DNA from: the human T2T-CHM13v2.0 reference genome, Homo sapiens
Direction: 5' to 3' (one strand)
Assembly (NCBI RefSeq): GCF_009914755.1
Contig: NC_060947.1
DNA: 64,000 nucleotides
In this document: in pieces, positions 33,046-43,906 of the stretch
Position numbering within the stretch: position 1 is the stretch's first letter
Layout: each line of letters begins with the position of its first letter
Position numbers and translations under genes: made by a program
Notes under the pieces: model-generated
The model's database searches: none
Seen by the model: only the letters and a program-made list of their open reading frames with translations
Told to the model about the DNA's origin: nothing

Positions 33046-33752
33046 AGTTATGAGTTGAATTGTGTCTCCCTCAAATTTATACATTGTAGTGGGGGTTAGG
33101 ACTGAAGAGGAAGACCCACCCTCAGGAAGACCCAGCCACAATGTTCTAATGCCCTTTGGTATCTGTTTCTGTGTTAGTTTGCTAAGGATAACAGCTTCCA
33201 ACTCCATCCATGTTTCTGCAAAGGACATGATCTCATTCCTTTTTATGGCTGCATAGTATTCCATGGTGTATATGTACCACATTTTCTTTATCCAGTCTAT
33301 CATTGATGGGCATTTAGGTTGATTCCATGTCTTTGCTATGTGAACTGTGTGTCAATGAACATATGTGTGCATGTATCTTTATAATAGAATGATTTACATA
33401 TATGTCAAAAGGGGACTTTGCAGATGTGTTTAATTGAATATGTTGAGGTGGAGAGACTATCTTGAATTATCCAGGTAAACTCAATGTAATCATGAAAGCC
33501 CTTACAGGAGTCAGAGAGAAATCTGAATTGGCTATGCTGCTGGCTTTAAATGCAAGCAGTCTCTAGAAGTTGAAAAAGAAAATGAATTCCTTCCTAGAGC
33601 CTCCAGAAGGAACAAGTCCTACCAAATCTTTGAGTATAGCCCAAAAAGACTGGCTTTAGACTTCTAGCCTCAAGCACTGTAAGATAAAACAATGTTCTTT
33701 TGAGCTACCAAATTTATGATTATTTGTTACTTCAGCAACAGGAAACATATTA
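33046..33752 (+). mobile_element. MLT1(C/D)-like MaLR LTR broken by a complex insertion
   Basis: GTTATGAGTTGAATTGTGTCTCCC start; resumes at ~33400 GGGGACTTTGCAGATG...CTAGAGCCTCCAGAAGGAAC...TTTGTTAC..CAGCAACAGGAAAC. Confidence 0.75.
33155..33400 (-). mobile_element. Internal L1 fragment (ORF2 end / 3' UTR start) with no poly-A
   Basis: Translates as IDWIKKMWYIYTMEYYAAIKRNEIMSFAETWMELEAVILSKLTQKQ (L1 ORF2 C-terminus). Confidence 0.9.
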
Positions 33753-33932
33753 ATTTACATGACAGCAACTGAACTACGTCTTTCCCTCCACAGGGGGAAG
33801 AACCTCTTTTCCTTTCCCCATGATATATTTTTCAATGTAAAACAGAAATGAATCAAAGCCACTTCTGTTTATGAAAAATCTACTCTGCTCCTTTCTGCAC
33901 ATTTCACTGGTGATTATTCTGAGAGTTAAAAG

Positions 33933-34552
33933 TTTGAACCCAAAAGTATCTGAGACAGGACTCAATCAATTTAGAAAGTTTATTTTCCAAGGTTAAGCAC
34001 GTGCCTGTGACATAGCTTCAGGAGGTCTCGATGACGTGTGCCCAAGGTGATCAGAGTAAACCCTCCATTTATATATTTTATGGAGATATAATATATCTAC
34101 CAAGACATGTAAGGTGTATGTTGGTTCGATCTGGAAAGGTGGGAGTGCTTGAAGCAGAGGCTTTCAGGTCATAGGTAGATTTAAAGATTTTCTGATTGTC
34201 AATTGGTTGCAACAGTTATTATCTAAAGACCTGAAATCAATAGAAAGGAATATCTGAGTTATGATAAGGGGTTGTGGAGCAAGGTTTTACCATGCAGATG
34301 AAGCCTCCGGGTAGCAGGCTTCAGAGAGAATACATTGTAAATGTTTCTTATCAGACTTACCATCCGTGTTTAAGTGAATGCTGGTTGGCTTTTCCAGAAT
34401 TCCAAAAGGAAGGAGGATATAATGAGCCATGTTTGATCCCACTCCCCATAATGACCTGAACTAGTTCTTCAGGTTAATTTTGGAATGCCCTTGCTGAGAG
34501 GAGGGGTCTGTTCAGATGACCGAGGGGCTCAGAATTTTATTTTTGCTCTACA
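33933..34552 (-). mobile_element. MER4-family ERV1 solo LTR
   Basis: Reverse complement begins TGTAGAGCAAAAATAAAATTCTGAGCCCC...CAAGGGCATTCCAAAATTAACCTGAAGAACTAGTTCAGG; other end ...CCTGTCTCAGATACTTTTGGGTTC. Confidence 0.75.
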
Positions 34553-34801
34553 ATGGATTAATAAATAGTGACTGGTGCATATAAATTCAGAAATGTGCAT
34601 TAATTATTATTCAGTGGTGATGCAATTATCTCATGTTCATGGGACCACTAAGTGGTGGAATCAGGGGTCAAATTTAGGCATGGGTTCCAGTGTCACATGC
34701 TTTCTATTGGCCATATGGCTTCTCTGGTTGGAAGGTTTCAACACTACCATAGTTATCCCTTTCCTACTGTATCCTTCTACTGCCTCAGCCGTCTTTCTCA
34801 G
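34118..34801 (+). repeat. Copy 1 of the 684-bp direct duplication flanking the HERV-H provirus
   Basis: Matches 40517-41200 except 9 substitutions and no indels (hand count); abuts the first base of the 5' LTR. Confidence 0.97.
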
Positions 34802-35254
34802 TGTCAGGCCTCTGAGCCCAAGCCAAGCCATCGCATCCCCTGTGACTTGCACATATATGCCCAGATGGCCTGAAGTAACTGAAGAATCACAAAAGAAGTG
34901 AATATGCCCTGCCCCACCTTAACTGATGACATTCCACCACAAAAGAAGTGTAAATGGCCGGTCCTTGCCTTAACTGATGACATTACCTTGTGAAAGTCCT
35001 TTTCCTGGCTCATCCTGGCTCAAAAAGCACCCCCACTGAGCACCTTGCAACCCCCACTCCTGCCCGCCAGGGAACAAACCCCCTTTGACTGTAATTTTCC
35101 TTTACCTACCCAAATCCTATAAAACGGCCCCACCCTTATCTTCCTTCGCTGACTCTCTTTTCGGACTCAGCCCGCCTGCACCCAGGTGAAATAAACAGCC
35201 ATGTTGCTCACACAAAGCCTGTTTGGTGGTCTCTTCACACGGACGCGCATGAAA
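34802..35254 (+). promoter_or_regulatory. 5' LTR7 (probably LTR7up-like) promoter/enhancer
   Basis: TGTCAGGCCTCTGAGCCCAAG...GGACGCGCATGAAA; TATAAAA 35118-35124; AATAAA 35190-35195; two U3 repeat units each containing ACAAAAGA (34889-34896, 34939-34946). Confidence 0.93.
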
Positions 35255-35256
35255 TT

Positions 35257-35274
35257 TGGTGCCGTAACTCGGAT
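35257..35274 (+). other. Primer-binding site complementary to tRNA-His
   Basis: TGGTGCCGTAACTCGGAT immediately after the 5' LTR, one mismatch to TGGTGCCGTGACTCGGAT. Confidence 0.93.
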
Positions 35275-35397
35275 CGGGGAACCTCTCTTGGGAGATCAAT
35301 CCCCTGTACTCCTGTTCTTTGCTCCATGAGAAAGATCCACCTATGACCTCAGGTCCTCAGACCGACCAGCCCAAGGAACATCTCACCAATTTCAAAT

Positions 35398-35406
35398 CAG
35401 GTAAGT
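35398..35406 (+). promoter_or_regulatory. HERV-H major splice donor (CAG/GTAAGT)
   Basis: Exact consensus 5' splice site ~145 nt downstream of the 5' LTR, where HERV-H chimeric transcripts typically splice. Confidence 0.7.
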
Positions 35407-36039
35407 GGCCTCTTCTTACTCTCTTCTCCAACCTCTCTGTCCCTCAACCACTTTCTCCTTTCCACTCTTCAATCTCTCCCTTCTCTTAATTTCAATTCCT
35501 TTCATTTTCTGGGAGAGACAAAGGAGAAACGTTTTATCCGTGGACCCAAAACTCCGGCGCCGGTCACAGACTGGGAAGGCAGCCTTCCCTTAGTGTTTAA
35601 TCACTGCAGGAATGCCTCTCTGATTATACACCCACGTTTCAAGGGTGTCAGACCACGCAGGGACGCCTGCCTTGGTCCTTCACCCTTAGTGGCAAGTCCC
35701 GCTTTTCTAGGGAAGGGGCAAGTACCTCAAACCCTTCTCTCCTTGTCTCTACCCCTTCTCTGCTTTTCTGGGATAGGGGCAAGTACCCCTCAACCCCTTC
35801 TCCTTCACCCTTAGCGGCAAGTCCCGCTTTTCTACGGGACAAGAACCCCCAATCCCTTATTTCCACACCCCAACCTCTTATCTCTGTGCCCCAATCCCTT
35901 ATTTACGTGCCCCAACCTCTTATCTCTGTGCCCCAATTCCTTATTTCCATGCCCCAACCCTTTCTCTGCTTTTCTGGAGGGCAAGAACCCCCAACCCCTT
36001 CTCCGTGTCTCTACTCTTTTCTCTGGCCTTGCCTCCTTC

Positions 36040-37232
36040 ACTATGGGCAAGCTTCCACCTTCCATTCCTCCTTCTTCTCCCTTAGCCTATATTCTTAAGA
36101 ACTTAAAACCTCTTCAACTCTCACCTGACCTAAAATCTAAGCATCTTATTTTCTTCTGCAATGCCGCTTGAGGCCAATACAAACTCGACAGTAGTTCCAA
36201 ATAGCCGGAAAATGGCACTTTCAATTTTTCCATCCTACAAGATCTAAATAATTCTTGTCGTAAAATGGGCAAATATGGTCTGAGGTGCCTGACGTCCAGG
36301 CATTCTTTTACACATCAGTCCCTTCCTAGTCTCTGTGCCCAGTGCAACTCGTCCCAAATCTTCCTTCTTTCCCTCCCGCCTGTCCCCTCAGTCCCAACCC
36401 CAAGCGTCGCTGAGTCTTTCTAATCTTCCTTTTCTACAGACCCATCTGACCTCTCCCCTCCTCGCCAGGCCAAGCTAGGTCCCAATTCTTCCTCAGCCTC
36501 CGCTCCTCCACCCTGTAATCTTTTTATCGCCTCCCCTCCTCACACCTGGTCCGGCTTACAGTTTCGTTCAGTGACTAGCCCTCCCCCACCTGCCCAGCAA
36601 TTTACTCTTAAAAAGGTGGCTGGAGCCAAAGGCATAGTCAAGGTTAATGCTCCTTTTTCTTTATCCCAAATCAGAAGCGTTTAGGTTCTTTTTCATCAAA
36701 TATAAAAACCCAGCCCAGTTCATGGCTCATTCGGCAGCAACCCTGAGACGCTTTACAGCCCTAGACCCTAAAAGGTCAAAAGGCCATCTTATTCTCAATA
36801 TACATTTTATTACCCAATCTGCTCCCGACATTAAATAAAACTCCAAAAATTAGAATCTGGCCCTCAAACCCCACAACAGGACTTAATTAACCTCACCTTC
36901 AAGGTGTACAATAATAAAAAAAAAAGTTGCAATTCCTTCCCTCCACTGTGAGACAAACCCCAGCCACATCTCCAGCACACAAGAACTTCCAAACGCCTGA
37001 ACCGCAGCGGCCAGGCGTTCCTCCAGAACCTCCTCCCCCAGGAGCTTGCTACAAGTGCCAGAAATCTGGCCACCAGGCCAAAGAATGCCTGCAGCCCAGG
37101 ATTCCTCCTAAGCCGTGTCCCATCTGTGCGGGACCCCACTGGAAATCGGACTGTTCAACTCACCTGGCAGCCACTCCCAGAGCCCCTGGAACTCTGGCCC
37201 AAGGCTCTCTGACTGACTCCTTCTCGGCTTAG
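36040..37232 (+). pseudogene. gag: HERV-H gag remnant with two nucleocapsid zinc knuckles
   Basis: ORF 36927-37232 contains CYKCQKSGHQAKEC and CPICAGPHWKSDC; upstream part disrupted; start approximate. Confidence 0.85.
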
Positions 37233-37282
37233 CGGCTGAAGACTGACGCTGCCTGATCGCCTTGGAAGCCCCGTAGACCATC

Positions 37283-37620
37283 ATGGACGCCGAGCTTCAG
37301 GTAACTCTCACAGTGGAAGGTAAGTCCGTCCCCTTCTTAATCAATATGGAGGCTACCCACTCCGCATTACCTTCCTTTCAAAGGCCTGTTTCCCTTGCCT
37401 CCATAACTGTTGTAGGTATTGACAGCCAGGCTTCTAAACCTCTTAAAACTCCCCCACTCTGGTGCCAACTTAGACAATACTCTTTTACGCACTCCTTTTT
37501 AGTTATCCCCACCTGCCCAGTTCCCTTATTAGGCCGAGACACTTTAACTAAATTATCTGCTTCCCTGACTACTCCTGGATTACACCTGCATCTCATTGCT
37601 GCCCTTCTTCCCAATCCAGA
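37283..37620 (+). pseudogene. pro: HERV-H protease remnant, catalytic motif lost
   Basis: VEGKSVPFLINMEATHS (DTG position degenerate) ...PTCPVPLLGRDTLTKL. Confidence 0.85.
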
Positions 37621-37689
37621 GCCTCCTTTGCGTCCTCCTCTTGTATCCCCCACCTTAACCCACAAGTATAAGATACCTCTACTCCCTCC

Positions 37690-39470
37690 TTGGCGACCGA
37701 TCAAGCACGCCTTACCATCTCATTAAAACCTAATCACCCTTACGCCGCTCAACGCCAATATCTCATCCCACAGCATGCTTTGAAAGGATTAAAGCCTGTT
37801 ATCACTCGCCTGCTACAGCATGGGCTTTTAAAACCTATAAACTCTCCTTACCATTCCCCCATTTTACCTGTCCTAAAACCAGACAAGCCTTACAAGTTAG
37901 TTCAGAATCTGCGCCTTATCAACCAAATGTTTTGCCTATCCACCCCGTGGTGCCAAACCCATATACTCTTCTATCCTCAATACCTCCCTCTACTACCCAT
38001 TATTCTGTTCTGGATCTCAAACATGCTTTCTTTACTATTCCTTTGCACCCTTCATCCCAGCCTCCCTTTGCTTTCACTTAGACTGACCCTGACACCCATT
38101 AGGCTCAGCAAATTACCTGGGCTGTACTGCCGCAAGGCTTCACAGACAGCCCCCATTACTTCAGTCAAGCCCAAATTTCATCCTCATCTGTTACCTATCT
38201 GGGCATAATTCTCATAAAAACACAGGTGCTCTCCCTGCTGATCATGTCCGAATAATCTCCCAAACCTCAATCCCTTACAAAACAACAACTCCTTTCCTTC
38301 CTAGGCATGGTTAGCGTGGTCGGAATTCTTACACAATAGCCAGGACCACACCGTGTAGCCTTTCTGTCCAAACAACTTGACCTTACTGTTTTAGCCTAGC
38401 CCTCATGTCTGCCTGCAGCAGCTGCCACTGCTTTAATATTTTTAGAGGCCCTCAAAATCACAAACTATGCTCAACTCACTCTCTACATTTCTCATAACTT
38501 CCAAAATCTATTTTCTTCCTCATACCTGACGCATATACTTTCTGCTTCCCGGCTCCTTCAGCTGTACTCACTCTTTGTTAAGTCCCACAATTACCATTGT
38601 TCCTGGCCCGGACTTCAATCCGGCCTCCCACATTATTCCTGATACCACACCTGACCCCCATGACTGTATCTCTCTGATCCACCTGACATTCACCCCATTT
38701 CCCCAAATTTCCGTCTTTCCTGTTCCTCACCCTGATCACGCTTGATTTATTGATGGTGGTTCCACCAGGCCTAATCACCACACACCAGCAAAGGCAGGCT
38801 ATGCTATAGTACAAGCCACTAGCCCGCCTCTTAGAACCTCTCGTTTCCTTTCCATCGTGGAAATCTATCCTCAAGGAAATAACTTCTCAGTGTTCCATCT
38901 GCTATTCTACTACTCCTCAGGGATTATTCAGGCCCCGTCCCTTCCCTACACATCAGGCTCGAGGATTTGCCCCCACCCAGGACTGGCAAATTAGCTTTAC
39001 TCAACATGCCCAGAGTCAGGAAACTAAAATACCTCTTAGTCTAGGTAGACACTTTCACTGGATAGGTACAGGCCTTTCCTACAGGGTCTGAGAAGGCCAC
39101 CGCAGTCATTTCTTCCCTTCTGTCAGACATAATTCCTCAGTTTAGCCTTCCCACCTCTATACCGTCTGATAACAGACCAGCCTTTATTAGTCAAATCAGC
39201 CAAGCAGTTTTTCAGGCTCTTAGTATTCAGTGAAACCTTTATATCCCTTATAGTCCTCCATCTTCAAGAAAAGTAGAACGGACTAAAGGTCTTTTAAAAA
39301 CACACCTCACCAAGCTCAGCCACCAACTTAAAAAGGACTGGACAATACTTTTACCACTTTCCCTTCTCAGAAATCAGGCCTGTCCTCAGAATGCTACAGG
39401 GTACAGCCCATTTGAGCTCCTGTATAGATGCTCCTTTTTATTAGGCCCCAGTCTCATTCCAGACACCAGA
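37690..39470 (+). pseudogene. pol: HERV-H pol remnant (RT, RNase H, integrase; frameshifted and deleted)
   Basis: [26 protein letters not shown], then [12 protein letters not shown] and LPQGFTDSP in a shifted frame; integrase-like sequence with stops; end approximate. Confidence 0.88.
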
Positions 39471-40057
39471 CCAACTTAGACTGTGCCCCCCACCAAAAAA
39501 AAACTTGTCATCCCTACTATCTTCTGTCTAGTCATACTCCTATTCACCGTTCTCAACTACTCATACATGCCCTGCTCTTGTTTACACTGCCGGTTTACAC
39601 TGTTTCTCCAAGCCATCACAGCTGATATCTCCTGGTGCTATCCCCAAACTGCCACTCTTAACTCTTGAAGTAAATAAATAATCTTTGCTGGCAGGACTAT
39701 GCCGAATCTCCTTAGGCACTCTCTAATCAGATGTCCTAGGTCCTCCCAATTCTTAGACCTTTTATACCTGTTTTTCTCCTTCTCTTATTCCATTTAGTTT
39801 TTCAATTCATACAAAACCGTATCCAGGCCATCACCAATCATTCTATACGACAAATGTTTCTTCTAACATCCCCACAATATCACCCCTTACCACAAGACCT
39901 CCCTTCAGCTTAATCTCTCCCACTCTAGGCTCCCACGCCGCCCCTAATCCCACTCGAAGCAGCCCTGAGAAACATCGCCCATTCTCTCTCCATACCACCC
40001 CCCAAAAATTTTCACCACCCCAACACTTCAACACTATTTTGTTTTATTTTTCTTATT

Positions 40058-40070
40058 AAGAAGGCAGGAA
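40058..40070 (+). other. Polypurine tract
   Basis: AAGAAGGCAGGAA directly before the TG of the 3' LTR. Confidence 0.85.
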
Positions 40071-40519
40071 TGTCAGGCCTCTGAGCCCAAGCCAAGCCAT
40101 CGCATCCCCTGTGACTTGCACATATATGCCCAGATGGCCTGAAGTAACTGAAGAATCACAAAAGAAGTGAAAATGCCCTGCCCCACCTTAACTGATGACA
40201 TTCCACCACAAAAGAAGTGTAAATGGCCGGTCCTTGCCTTAACTGATGACATTACCTTGTGAAAGTCCTTTTCCTGGCTCATCTTGGCTCAAAAACACCC
40301 CCACTGAGCACCTCGCAACCCCCACTCCTGCCCGCCAGAGAACAAACCCCCTTTGACTGTAATTTTCCTTTACCTACCCAAATCCTATAAAACGGCCCCA
40401 CCGTTATCTCCCTTCGCTGACTCTCTTTTCGGACTCAGCCCGCCTGCACCCAGGTGAAATAAACAGCCATGTTGCTCACACAAAGCCTGTTTGGTGGTCT
40501 CTTCACACGGACGCGCATG
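40071..40519 (+). promoter_or_regulatory. 3' LTR7 lacking the terminal AAA
   Basis: 6 substitutions and one 1-bp indel vs the 5' LTR; AATAAA 40458-40463; ends GGACGCGCATG then host sequence. Confidence 0.95.
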
Positions 40520-41200
40520 TTGGCTCAATCTGGAAAGGTGGGAGTGCTTGAAGCAGAGGCTTTCAGGTCATAGGTAGATTTAAAGATTTTGTGATTGTCA
40601 ATTGGTTGCAACAGTTATTATCTAAAGACCTGAAATCAATAGAAAGGAATATCTGGGTTATGATAAGGGGTTGTGGAGCAAGGTTTTACCATGCAGATGA
40701 AGCCTCCGGGTAGCAGGCTTCAGAGAGAATACATTGTAAATGTTTCTTATCAGACTTACCATCCGTGTTTAAGTGAATGCTGGTTGGCTTTTCCAGAATT
40801 CCAAAAGGAAGGAGGATATAATGAGCCATGTTTGATCCCACTCCCCATAATGACCTGAACTAGTTCTTCAGGTTAATTTTGGAATGCCCTTGCTGAGAGG
40901 AGGGGTCTGTTCAGATGACCGAGGGGCTCAGAATTTTATTTTTGCTCTACAATGGATTAGTAAGTAGTGACTGGTGCATATAAATTCAGAAATGTGCATT
41001 AATTATTATTCAGTGGTGATGCAATTATCTCATGTTCATGGGACCATTAAATGGTGGAATCAGGGGTCAAATTTAGGCATGGGTTCCAGTGTCACATGCT
41101 TTCTATTGGCCATATGGCTTCTCTGGTTGGAAGGTTTCAACACTACCATAGTTATCCCTTTCCTACTGTATCCTTCTACTGCCTCAGCCTTCTTTCTCAG
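40517..41200 (+). repeat. Copy 2 of the 684-bp duplication (includes a partial MER4-family LTR, 40517-40951)
   Basis: Offset 6399 from copy 1; its first 3 bases (ATG) are shared with the LTR end. Confidence 0.97.
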
Positions 41201-42147
41201 AGTGTGCCCCATAAGTTTCTGAATGAGACTGATTCTCACTACCATTAAGTTAGAAGGGTCTCTCCTACAAACGTGCTTACCCCAAAGAGGGTCCCTTTTC
41301 AGCAGAGTAGCTCTAGAGGGAATCATCACAATGCTTGGTTAGCGTGTTCTGCCCTTTGCTTTTTTGCATGGAAAATTTTAAATGTGAGTGATCCTGGAGC
41401 TTGCAGTCTTGACTGGTTCACTCGTTAGTATCCGAGAGAGATCAGATACTCTGCCCTCCATTCTAAGGCCTAGGGCTATGTTTGACGAAACCAAAATAAT
41501 AGTCCAACGTTTCTTGATTGTCAATTTTCTCCCAGTAATAGTGTTTAAAAAGTAGTGACTAAGTAATCCAAATAATGAGGACAAGATTATTAATAGTTGG
41601 TATTGTTAATGTAAAATGTTAATGATCTTAGAAGTTCTGCAAATTCTCTTATGGAGATGTGTCAATGTACATTTGAAGATGGTGAAATTCAGTAAGGCCA
41701 AGATATCAGAGCTGGGAAATGGAAAGTGTTCATCAAAGGTCTGGGGGTGGCAGTTATTCGCATCCTGTTCTTTATTCTTTCGAGTTAAAATTCAGGCACT
41801 GACAATTCCAGGATAAAAATCTATTTCTCCTTACATATAAATCAGCCATGATTATTCTTAACTAGGAACAGCCAGGGTGTGTGCATAATCATTTAAATTG
41901 AGAGCTGAATAATGGATCTTGATTAGCAATACATTGAAGCAAATGTGGGGGAGAAATTAGAGTGCTTCTCTGTTTGTTTCATGCCTAGAATATATTAACT
42001 TTGGGGAAATGGCCCATTTTTACAGATGAGCTCAGGAAATACTCCATATGATTCAGGATTCTTTTTCCCAAAGTATTATTTCGCAATGCAGACATCAATA
42101 GTGGTGTATTAGCTGAGGTTTAGAAAGGACAAAGATAGATTATTGAA

Positions 42148-42282
42148 ATTTTCTTTTTGTAGGTACAGAGTAGGTTTATATATTTATGGACTGCATGAGA
42201 TATGTTGATACAGGCATGCCATGCATTATAAACACATCATGGAAAATGGAGTATCCATCCCCTCAAGCATGTATCCTTTTTA
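42148..42282 (-). mobile_element. Short L1MA 3' end
   Basis: TTTTTGTAGGTACAGAGTAGG...GATACAGGCATG...ATGGAGTATCCATCCCCTCAAGCAT. Confidence 0.75.
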
Positions 42283-42391
42283 ATTCAGGATACCATTTTC
42301 CTAATATTCTGTAATACTTTATTGTTGGGTTATTTTCAAAGGCTTATTAAGATCTTAACTTACACTCCCATCTTTTGTTTAAATTGATGGC

Positions 42392-42739
42392 TGTATTAGT
42401 CGGTTTTCAAACTGCTATAAAGATATATCTGGGACTGGGTAATTTATAAAGGAAAGAGGCTTAATTGAATCACAGCTCTGCATGGCTGGAGAGGCTGCAG
42501 GAAACTTACAATCATGGTGCAAGGGGAAGCAAGCACATCTTCCATGGTGGCAGGAGAGAGAGGAGCAACAGTAGGGAAACCTGCCTTATAAAACCATCAG
42601 ATCTCATGAAAACTCACTCACTGTCACACTACAGCATGGAGGAAACTGGCCCCATGATCCAATCACCTCCCTCCCTTAACACGTGGGGATTACAATTCGA
42701 GGTGAGATTTGGGTGGGGACACAGAGCCAAGCCATATCC
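42392..42739 (-). mobile_element. MST-type MaLR solo LTR (MSTA-like)
   Basis: TGTATTAGTC...GACTGGGTAATTTATAAAGGAAAGAGG...GAGATTTGGGTGGGGACACAGAGCCAAGCCATATC. Confidence 0.88.
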
Positions 42740-43906
42740 ATGAACGATGGAATAACGTAATTATTTAGAAACAGCAAATTGTGTGGTGTAATGGTATTAC
42801 TTTGCATTGGTTCATTTGGAAAGAACCATCAATGTATGCACTTCAATGAAGATATTAATTGTTCATATATTAATAGTTTCTGGATGCATTTCGTTCATAT
42901 AAATCTTTAGTAGAACTCTATTTGTGGATGAATGTATTTTTTATGGAGTTTAAAGTATATTTATTTTTATATTTAAACTTTATTAGCAACATCCCCCAGA
43001 AAACAGAATATTTCCTACAAATCTGTCCCAGCAGCAGAAAATATGGAGTGTCTTTGTACACATAGAAAGTATGTAAATGTTATGGTGAGATCTTACTAAT
43101 GAAGAATGATGTTTTTATGGCATGACAAGGCAAATATGTAAGAAAAGATAAGAAGATGTTATATGTTTTGTGCCAAATGTGTTAATAATCCTGATGTTAG
43201 ACCACAGAGGAAGAAGATGTCATATGACAGGGTATAGAGAGTTGATAGATATACCTCACTAGAAAAGAAAGGAAGGTTTATTTAGGGGTAGAATAAAGGA
43301 AAGTCTAGGATGCTGCAGAATGAAATCAGCTATTGATGGATGTACTTTAAGGATAGTAGATGATTGTATAGGCATGGGGAAAAAGAGGGAATTAATGATG
43401 CATTAAAGAAAAGTTAAAAATTTTTAAAAATATGAATTAATTTATAGAGTCCCTACTATGTGCTATAAAGAATATTTTTCATTTAAGAGAAACAAATAAG
43501 AAAAATATGAAAAGGAAAATCTATACCCCATGGCTGTAAGAATGCATTAAATTTCACTGATATAGTTCTCCCTTGGGTTTTATGCTGAGAATTCTTAAGG
43601 GAAAAAATCTCATTAATACATTTTGAAAATCTTGCATTATCTATAGTAACTCCTTATAGATTAAATGTTCATGTTTTCTCTTCCTTTTTCACTCTTCTCA
43701 CATCCCAAATTTCTCTCTTTTTTCTGTTAGATGCTATCTCTTCCTGATTGTTGATTTCCGCCTTCATATCCCAAAAGCCCTGCTTCAATCTTCCATTTGA
43801 ATCTTAATTGAATTCACATAAGACTAAGTGAATCTCACATTCACCTTAAGAAACGTCAAAACACTAAAATGTAAAAATGCTAATTACCATGTGATTGTAT
43901 GAGTCA

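What the first reader, a model, noticed from the sequence alone, without database searches (positions are those of the whole stretch)
34118..41200. HERV-H provirus flanked by a 684-bp target-site duplication, suggesting a fossil aberrant (one-ended) integration
Seen: host DNA 34118-34801 ends exactly at the TG of the 5' LTR. It is repeated in direct orientation at 40517-41200, starting within the last bases of the 3' LTR, with 9 substitutions and no indels (hand count). Sequence after 41200 is not part of the repeat. Established: gamma-like retroviral integrases make 4-6 bp TSDs, and integrations where only one viral end is joined by integrase can give large host duplications with microhomology at the other end. 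Inference: the U3 end was joined normally after ...CTCAG, and host repair joined the U5 end 684 bp upstream. Long TSDs have been reported for some HERV-K LTRs; I do not know whether this locus has been described.
Basis: partly seen in the sequence, partly recalled or inferred. Interest (0 to 1): 0.9.

Follow-up and report, generated by a model that had tools for sequence, protein, structure and literature searches.

The report
HERV-H provirus with 684-bp flanking duplication
A defective human endogenous retrovirus on Xp22.3 is bracketed by two copies of the same 684 bases of host DNA, most likely a scar of a botched integration a few million years ago; such scars are already known from cell culture and from another human retrovirus family.

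Summary
Window 34118-34801 and 40517-41200 are 684-bp direct repeats with 9 substitutions and no indels. They abut a 5,718-bp deleted HERV-H provirus (34802-40519).

- **Ends.** The 5' LTR starts with an intact TG. The 3' LTR lacks its last 3 bases and overlaps the repeat by a 3-base microhomology. There is no 5-bp target-site duplication.
- **Controls.** In 19 comparison HERV-H proviruses, every 3' LTR was complete. Fourteen had a perfect 5-bp duplication and none had a long flank repeat.
- **Timing.** LTR-LTR divergence (6/449, 1.34%) equals repeat-repeat divergence (9/684, 1.32%).
- **Empty site.** The chrY gametolog has one copy of the segment, running straight into the downstream sequence, and no provirus.

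The best reading (about 0.8) is aberrant integration: integrase joined the U3 end and host end-joining attached a damaged U5 end 684 bp upstream.

The same signature is published for XMRV (273 bp), ASLV and HIV-1, and long duplications are known for HERV-K(HML-2) (250 bp proven, 450 bp putative). I found no HERV-H case in print. This is a new member of a known kind, of moderate interest. Primate orthologues could not be examined.

The parts
33932..34552 (.). Old interspersed repeat (~620 bp, begins TG, ends CA, LTR-like; family not named). Its last ~435 bp form the left part of the duplicated segment.
   Evidence: blastn to five unrelated loci L004-L008 at 80-81% identity spanning window ~33926-34554. 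2988 first-look candidates in the genome.
34118..34801 (+). Copy A of the duplicated host segment (684 bp), ending exactly at the first base of the 5' LTR.
   Evidence: 6 of the 9 differences are derived in this copy, by the chrY outgroup.
34802..35254 (+). 5' LTR (453 bp), complete: begins TGTCAGG, ends ...TGAAA.
   Evidence: Aligns end to end (query positions 1-453) with both LTRs of 17 of the 20 fetched comparison loci; 2 more start at position 2-3, and L017 has only one full LTR. Overlapped by the RefSeq enhancer 34613-35119 (hub annotation).
35257..35274 (+). Primer-binding site, tRNA-His type. It has 1 mismatch to the published 18-nt PBS primer and is preceded by TT.
   Evidence: Primer printed in PMC3253121. 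596 genome matches at up to 1 mismatch against 3 for the control pattern.
35255..40070 (+). Internal region of a deleted, non-coding HERV-H. Broken gag (zinc knuckle 36918-37232; weak p30 36638-36838), protease (37277-37726), weak RT fragment (37734-38081). No integrase or env domain detected. Many stops; longest stop-to-stop frame is 178 aa.
   Evidence: Pfam: zf-CCHC 1.2e-6, RVP 5.4e-8, RVT_1 1.3e-3 below cut-off, Gag_p30 3.8e-3 below cut-off; 15 of 19 frames gave nothing.
40058..40070 (+). Polypurine tract directly before the 3' LTR.
   Evidence: Read. The label is from general retrovirus knowledge.
40071..40519 (+). 3' LTR, truncated. It matches the 5' LTR up to that LTR's fourth-last base and lacks the last 3 bases (or 6, if the shared ATG is host-derived).
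   Evidence: 6 substitutions and 1 one-base indel over 449 aligned bases; 19 of 19 comparison 3' LTRs are complete.
40517..40519 (+). Junction microhomology (ATG), shared by the 3' LTR end and the start of the duplicated segment. The 4 bases before it match at 2 further positions.
40517..41200 (+). Copy A' of the duplicated host segment (684 bp), continuing without a scar into downstream host DNA at 41201.
   Evidence: 3 of the 9 differences are derived in this copy.

Best explanation
The 684-bp duplication was made during the integration of this provirus, by an aberrant (one-ended) integration.

Integrase joined the processed U3 end to the target just after ...CTCAG. The U5 end was damaged or unusable and was not joined by integrase 5 bp away. 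Host repair attached it 684 bp upstream, using a 3-base microhomology and losing the last 3 bases of the LTR. Fill-in or strand-displacement synthesis across the 684-base interval left one copy of the host segment on each side.

Shown: the structure, the end states, the equal divergence, and the single-copy ancestral state.

Inferred: who joined the U5 end and in what order. The provirus has no integrase of its own, so the enzyme came in trans (inference).

Age: roughly 3-13 Myr depending on the assumed rate; 6.6 Myr at 1e-9 per site per year. The rates are my assumption.
For: 1. Both repeat boundaries coincide with the provirus ends, exactly at U3 and within 3 bases at U5. There is no other scar against the chrY sequence at the upstream/A or A'/downstream junctions.
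2. The normal signature is absent. The 5 bases before the 5' LTR (CTCAG) do not follow the 3' LTR. Of 19 comparison proviruses, 14 had a perfect 5-bp duplication, 1 had 4 of 5, 2 had none and 2 were not evaluable. None of the 19 had a long flank repeat within ~700 bp upstream and at least 2.4 kb downstream.
3. The aberrant end is truncated. 19 of 19 comparison 3' LTRs end in ...TGAAA, and this one stops 3 bases short.
4. The clocks agree: LTR pair 6/449 = 1.34%, repeat pair 9/684 = 1.32%, Fisher p = 1, rate ratio 1.02.
5. The chrY gametolog (L003, ~85% identical) has one copy, contiguous on both sides, and no provirus. All 9 differences are private derived changes, 6 in one copy and 3 in the other, with none ambiguous.
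6. There is published precedent with the same signature. XMRV: 1 of 15 sites had a 273-bp duplication together with a 5-bp deletion of one LTR end (PMC2857682, passages). ASLV and HIV-1: one normal end, the other often truncated, and host duplications of hundreds to thousands of bp (PMC5041404, passages).
Against: - No orthologous primate locus and no second human assembly could be examined, so the order of events rests on parsimony and on the clock.
- The clock is weak. With 6 and 9 substitutions, the 95% interval of the rate ratio is 0.30-3.19.
- LTRs carry more CpG than the flank (10-12 against 3-5 sites), and gene conversion could have altered either pair.
- The chrY copy diverged ~12% ago. 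It shows the old state but does not exclude a duplication arising shortly before integration.
- A later double template switch could give the same final sequence.
- The control set is 19 proviruses, drawn from the 20 top-ranked of the 39 closest relatives found. It is not the whole family of several hundred.
Confidence: 0.8

Rival explanations
1. Uncoordinated integration in which integrase itself joined both ends, 684 bp apart on opposite strands, with the 3 terminal bases of U5 lost then or later.
For: The geometry is that of an enlarged stagger. Kim et al. read their 273-bp XMRV case this way (PMC2857682).
Against: Integrase joins the processed terminal base. Here the terminus is missing and the junction sits on a 3-base microhomology, which is typical of host end-joining. 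The comparison proviruses keep the full terminus in 19 of 19.
Confidence: 0.08
2. Normal integration with a 5-bp duplication, followed later by a replication error with two template switches. The nascent strand left the 3' LTR near its end, re-annealed 6.4 kb upstream at ATG, copied the 684 bases, and returned through the 5-bp target duplication.
For: It gives exactly the observed sequence, and both switches would have microhomology (ATG; CTCAG). The clock cannot exclude a later date (ratio interval 0.30-3.19).
Against: It needs two independent breakpoints to fall by chance within a few bases of the two provirus ends. The point estimates of divergence are equal. None of 19 comparison proviruses shows anything similar.
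Confidence: 0.06
3. A tandem duplication of the 684-bp segment existed first, and the provirus then integrated at its junction (the 'pseudo-TSD' idea discussed for HERV-K in PMC5488345).
For: Kahyo et al. raise such models for long flanking repeats (Discussion).
Against: It requires integration exactly at the junction, plus loss of the 5-bp duplication and of 3 LTR bases. chrY has one copy. The repeat is no older than the LTR pair.
Confidence: 0.03
4. Assembly artefact: one flank was placed twice.
For: Only one assembly was available here.
Against: The copies differ at 9 sites, each polarised by chrY as a real derived change. The junctions are clean, there are no N, and the window is from a telomere-to-telomere assembly (hub note).
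Confidence: 0.02

Closest known systems
Long target-site duplications at HERV-K(HML-2) loci: 7p21.2 solo LTR 250 bp, 6p25.2 truncated provirus 111 bp, 21q21.1 provirus 450 bp putative (Kahyo et al. 2017, PMC5488345; Mamedov et al. as cited there)
   Same: An endogenous human retrovirus flanked by direct host repeats of hundreds of bp, with a single copy at the empty site where that is known. Macfarlane and Badge attribute such repeats to inefficient integration (PMC4422153).
   Different: A different genus-level group (gamma-like HERV-H, 5-bp norm) and a longer repeat (684 bp). Their scan covered only 4-500 bp. Here the provirus is full-length for its type, with one visibly truncated end and microhomology. 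The empty site is inferred from a chrY gametolog, not from an allele.
XMRV clone C-3: 273-bp duplication with a 5-bp deletion of one LTR end (Kim et al. 2010, PMC2857682)
   Same: A gammaretrovirus-type element with one end truncated including its terminal dinucleotide and a duplication of hundreds of bp in place of the short one.
   Different: That was an experimental infection of cultured cells with the U3 end affected. Here it is a germline fossil with the U5 end affected.
Aberrant one-ended integrations of ASLV vectors and HIV-1 (Hughes laboratory; Varadarajan et al. 2016, PMC5041404; Oh et al. 2006 seen only in reference lists)
   Same: One junction normal, the other end often truncated, and the host DNA most commonly duplicated by hundreds to thousands of bp.
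   Different: Those were provoked by mutant ends, integrase inhibitors or mutant integrase. The cause here is unknown.

Membership tests
HERV-H (LTR7-type) provirus | Two LTRs of the HERV-H type, beginning TGTCAGG and ending ...TGAAA | tested here: met
   The 5' LTR aligns 1-453 at 85-98% with both LTRs of the 19 comparison proviruses that have two. The 3' LTR matches but is 3 bases short.
HERV-H (LTR7-type) provirus | tRNA-His primer-binding site after the 5' LTR | tested here: met
   35257-35274, with 1 mismatch to the published PBS primer.
HERV-H (LTR7-type) provirus | gag-pro-pol remnants; the common ~5.7-6 kb deleted form lacking env | tested here: met
   zf-CCHC and RVP above the Pfam cut-off, weak Gag_p30 and RVT_1, no integrase or env. 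Length 5,718 bp against 5,199-6,839 bp in the 19 comparison copies.
HERV-H (LTR7-type) provirus | 5-bp target-site duplication abutting both LTRs | tested here: not met
   CTCAG before the 5' LTR is not repeated after the 3' LTR. 15 of 17 evaluable comparison copies have it. This concerns the integration event, not family membership of the element.
Aberrant (one-ended or uncoordinated) retroviral integration with a long host duplication | One viral end normal and precisely joined | tested here: met
   The 5' LTR starts at TG directly after copy A.
Aberrant (one-ended or uncoordinated) retroviral integration with a long host duplication | Other viral end truncated or otherwise abnormal | tested here: met
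   The 3' LTR lacks its last 3 bases and has a 3-base microhomology at the junction.
Aberrant (one-ended or uncoordinated) retroviral integration with a long host duplication | Direct host duplication abutting both ends, single-copy in the unoccupied site | tested here: met
   684-bp repeats. One copy in the chrY gametolog, contiguous on both sides. A true orthologous or allelic empty site was not available.
Aberrant (one-ended or uncoordinated) retroviral integration with a long host duplication | Duplication of the same age as the integration | tested here: inconclusive
   1.32% against 1.34%, ratio 1.02, but the 95% interval is 0.30-3.19.
Aberrant (one-ended or uncoordinated) retroviral integration with a long host duplication | All carriers share both copies and the same junctions; non-carriers have one copy | not testable with these tools
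   No primate genomes or human pangenome are held.
Pre-existing tandem or segmental duplication ('pseudo-TSD') | Duplication present without the provirus, or older than the LTR pair | tested here: not met
   chrY has one copy. Only 3 genome matches for the unique part. The repeat is not older than the LTRs. A recent pre-integration duplication is not strictly excluded.

The most novel reading that the evidence does not exclude
This may be the longest natural retroviral target duplication yet noted in the human genome and the first for HERV-H, and it may not be an accident. In all 20 5' LTRs and all 19 complete 3' LTRs seen here, the HERV-H U5 terminus ends in AA, not the near-universal CA. It is that end which failed here. 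If the non-canonical U5 end is a poorer integrase substrate, HERV-H as a family may carry an excess of one-ended integrations, seen as long duplications or flank deletions. The 2 of 17 evaluable comparison proviruses without any 5-bp duplication would be candidates.
Probability: 0.12. Interest if true: 0.55.

Novelty: new member of a known kind. Interest (0 to 1): 0.4.

Why it matters
- It is a clean germline fossil of an integration failure that is otherwise known mainly from cell culture. It extends long flanking duplications from HERV-K to a gamma-like family.
- Methods that use matching short duplications to call proviruses intact or recombinant would misfile this one.
- Scans capped at 500 bp, as in PMC5488345, would miss it.
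- Recombination between the two 684-bp copies would delete the provirus and restore a perfect-looking empty site. That could be mistaken for a pre-integration allele, a concern raised for HERV-K.
- The duplication also copies the 189 host bases that lie inside an annotated enhancer (34613-34801, copied at 41012-41200).

Tried and rejected
1. **Boundary at an old repeat edge.** I suspected that the duplication's left boundary coincided with the start of an old LTR-like repeat, because hits began at query positions 1-4. That was an artefact of the query's edge. With upstream sequence included, the repeat extends 186 bp further. Idea dropped.

2. **The 684-bp copies as 'LTRs' of a composite element.** Rejected. 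There are no matching flanking short repeats (read), and chrY has the segment as ordinary single-copy DNA.

3. **Tying the provirus to the colon-cancer-expressed HERV-HX/ERVH-2 at Xp22.32.** Not established. Liang et al. give hg19 chrX 4458515-4464361, minus strand, 5,847 bp (PMC3253121; PMC3113919). That is another assembly, the opposite strand as printed, and 129 bp longer. From my recollection of assembly offsets it may be a different provirus about 0.3 Mb away. A PBS pattern search listed only the first 100 of 596 matches and never reached the X.

6. **Print searches for a HERV-H case**. None was found. Of the 6 papers holding both 'HERV-H' and 'long target site', I opened one (PMC6298018), where the phrase is only in the reference list. 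The others were seen as listings only.
Full report
**What is there**

The window (T2T-CHM13 chrX:4402001-4466000 by the hub's note) holds one HERV-H provirus at 34802-40519 (5,718 bp).

- The 5' LTR is 34802-35254 (453 bp). It begins TGTCAGG and ends ...TGAAA. It is followed by TT and a tRNA-His-type primer-binding site at 35257-35274 (primer in PMC3253121).
- The interior carries only broken remnants. A gag zinc knuckle and a protease domain score above the Pfam cut-off. p30 and reverse-transcriptase fragments are weak. No integrase or env was detected, and 15 of 19 stop-to-stop frames gave nothing. It is the common deleted, non-autonomous form.
- A polypurine tract (40058-40070) precedes the 3' LTR (40071-40519).

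**The observation**

Window 34118-34801 and 40517-41200 are direct repeats of 684 bp with 9 substitutions and no indel.

- The first copy ends at the base before the TG of the 5' LTR.
- The second copy begins with ATG, which is at the same time the last three bases retained by the 3' LTR.
- Similarity ends at both outer boundaries.

The segment is partly repetitive. Its first ~435 bp belong to an old ~620-bp interspersed repeat (33932-34552; ~80% identity to many loci). That repeat starts 186 bp upstream of the duplication boundary, so the boundary is not a repeat edge. The right-hand 246 bp has only three matches in the genome: the two copies and one place on chrY.

**The canonical ends and the normal signature**

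A search with the LTR-end, PBS and leader stretch found 39 other close HERV-H 5' ends. I fetched the 20 best-ranked as 10-kb stretches.

Nineteen of the 20 held two full LTRs; L017 did not. Results:

| Feature | Result |
|---|---|
| 3' LTR ends in ...TGAAA | 19 of 19 |
| Perfect 5-bp direct repeat abutting both LTRs | 14 |
| 4 of 5 bases matching | 1 (L021) |
| No short repeat | 2 (L009, L028) |
| Second LTR followed by another PBS, not evaluable | 2 (L012, L019) |

None of the 19 had a long direct repeat between its ~700-bp upstream and at least 2.4-kb downstream flanks. The only hit was a 69% interspersed-repeat match far from the ends of L011.

Against this norm, the provirus here has an intact U3 end, a U5 end short by 3 bases (6 if the shared ATG is host-derived), no 5-bp repeat, and a 684-bp repeat in its place.

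**Timing**

- The two LTRs differ by 6 substitutions and one 1-base indel over 449 aligned bases (1.34%). The two host copies differ by 9 of 684 (1.32%). Fisher p = 1.
- The rate ratio is 1.02, but with so few events its 95% interval is 0.30-3.19.
- Pooled, 15 of 1,133 (1.32%) gives about 6.6 Myr at an assumed 1e-9 per site per year, and 3.0 to 13.2 Myr at 2.2e-9 and 0.5e-9. The rates are my assumption.
- Among the 20 proviruses compared, this LTR pair is the second least diverged (range 1.10-6.67%).

**The ancestral state**

No primate genome is held, but the assembly's chrY carries a gametolog (L003, G000:C24:17602313-17605940, minus strand, ~85% identical over more than 3 kb).

- It aligns continuously from upstream of the segment, through one copy of it, into the downstream sequence. 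There is no provirus.
- At base level the chrY sequence runs ...GGTGTATGTTGG... across the left boundary and ...TTTCTCAG/GGTGTGCCCC... across the right boundary.
- Using chrY as outgroup, all 9 differences are private derived changes, 6 in the upstream copy and 3 in the downstream copy, with none ambiguous (binomial p = 0.51).
- X-Y divergence is ~12%, about nine times the divergence between the copies.

**Mechanism**

The geometry is that of a normal integration with the stagger stretched from 5 to 684 bases. The U3 end is joined where a normal event would put it, and the U5 end is joined 684 bp to the left.

My preferred reading is as follows. Only the U3 end was joined by integrase, supplied in trans. 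The free 3' hydroxyl in the nicked target primed synthesis back across the segment. The unjoined U5 end, lacking its terminus, was then ligated by host microhomology-mediated end-joining at ATG. All of this is inference from the end states.

This is the pattern published for experimental systems:

- In XMRV, 1 of 15 sites had a 273-bp duplication together with a 5-bp deletion of one LTR end (PMC2857682, passages).

**Rivals**

- Integrase joining both ends far apart fits the geometry but not the missing terminus and the microhomology.
- A later double template switch reproduces the sequence, but it needs two breakpoints to fall by chance at the two provirus ends.
- A pre-existing tandem duplication needs integration exactly at its junction plus extra deletions. 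It has no support from chrY or from the clock.
- An assembly artefact is unlikely given 9 polarised differences.

I put these at 0.08, 0.06, 0.03 and 0.02, and the best explanation at about 0.8.

**What is known**

- Long flanking duplications are described for HERV-K(HML-2): 250 bp at 7p21.2 and 111 bp at 6p25.2 with sequenced empty sites, and 450 bp putative at 21q21.1. They came from a scan limited to 4-500 bp (PMC5488345; abstract, Results section with Table 2, and Discussion).
- Macfarlane and Badge ascribe such repeats to inefficient integration (PMC4422153, passage).
- I found no HERV-H example. Four full-text searches gave none. Most hits were seen only as listings, and subscription journals are not in the library.
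- Whether this provirus is the colon-cancer-expressed HERV-HX/ERVH-2 of Xp22.32 could not be settled.

**Verdict**

It is a new member of a known kind: a HERV-H fossil of aberrant integration with an unusually long (684-bp) duplication. Interest is moderate. The decisive test, primate orthologues and human long-read haplotypes, remains to be done.

Noticed in passing
window 35250-35254; L009-L028 LTR ends: The integrated U5 terminus of HERV-H LTRs ends in ...TGAAA (AA, not the usual CA) in 20 of 20 5' LTRs and 19 of 19 complete 3' LTRs, with the 5-bp duplication directly abutting it. The U3 end is canonical TG in 18 of 20.
   Followed up: partly
window 33932-34552: An old ~620-bp LTR-like interspersed repeat (begins TG, ends CA) with thousands of first-look candidates at ~80% identity. 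It is not in the hub's list of masked stretches. Family not named here.
   Followed up: partly
L003 = G000:C24:17602313-17605940 (minus strand): A chrY gametolog of window ~33155-34804 and 40564-42743 at 84-85% identity (~12% divergence over the duplicated segment). It is useful as an outgroup for this gene-poor Xp22.3 stretch.
   Followed up: partly
L012 and L019: In these two comparison loci the second LTR is followed by another PBS, so the structure is a tandem LTR-internal-LTR-internal arrangement. L019 also has two extra 53-bp copies of the LTR end.
   Followed up: no
L009 and L028: Two comparison proviruses with complete LTR ends but no matching 5-bp flanking repeat. They are candidates for inter-provirus recombination or for aberrant integration with a flank deletion.
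   Followed up: no
window 34888-34984, 40157-40253, 35847-35968: A 50-bp unit is present 1.9 times in U3 of both LTRs. A 21/42-bp tandem array lies in the leader/gag region.
   Followed up: no
window 34613-35119: The RefSeq-annotated enhancer straddles the junction of host copy A and the 5' LTR. Its 189 host bases are duplicated at 41012-41200.
   Followed up: no
window 34802-40519: A HERV-H at Xp22.32 (HERV-HX, ERVH-2) is repeatedly reported as expressed in colorectal cancer (PMC4741882, PMC3253121, PMC3113919). Whether it is this provirus or a neighbour could not be decided from the printed hg19 coordinates.
   Followed up: partly
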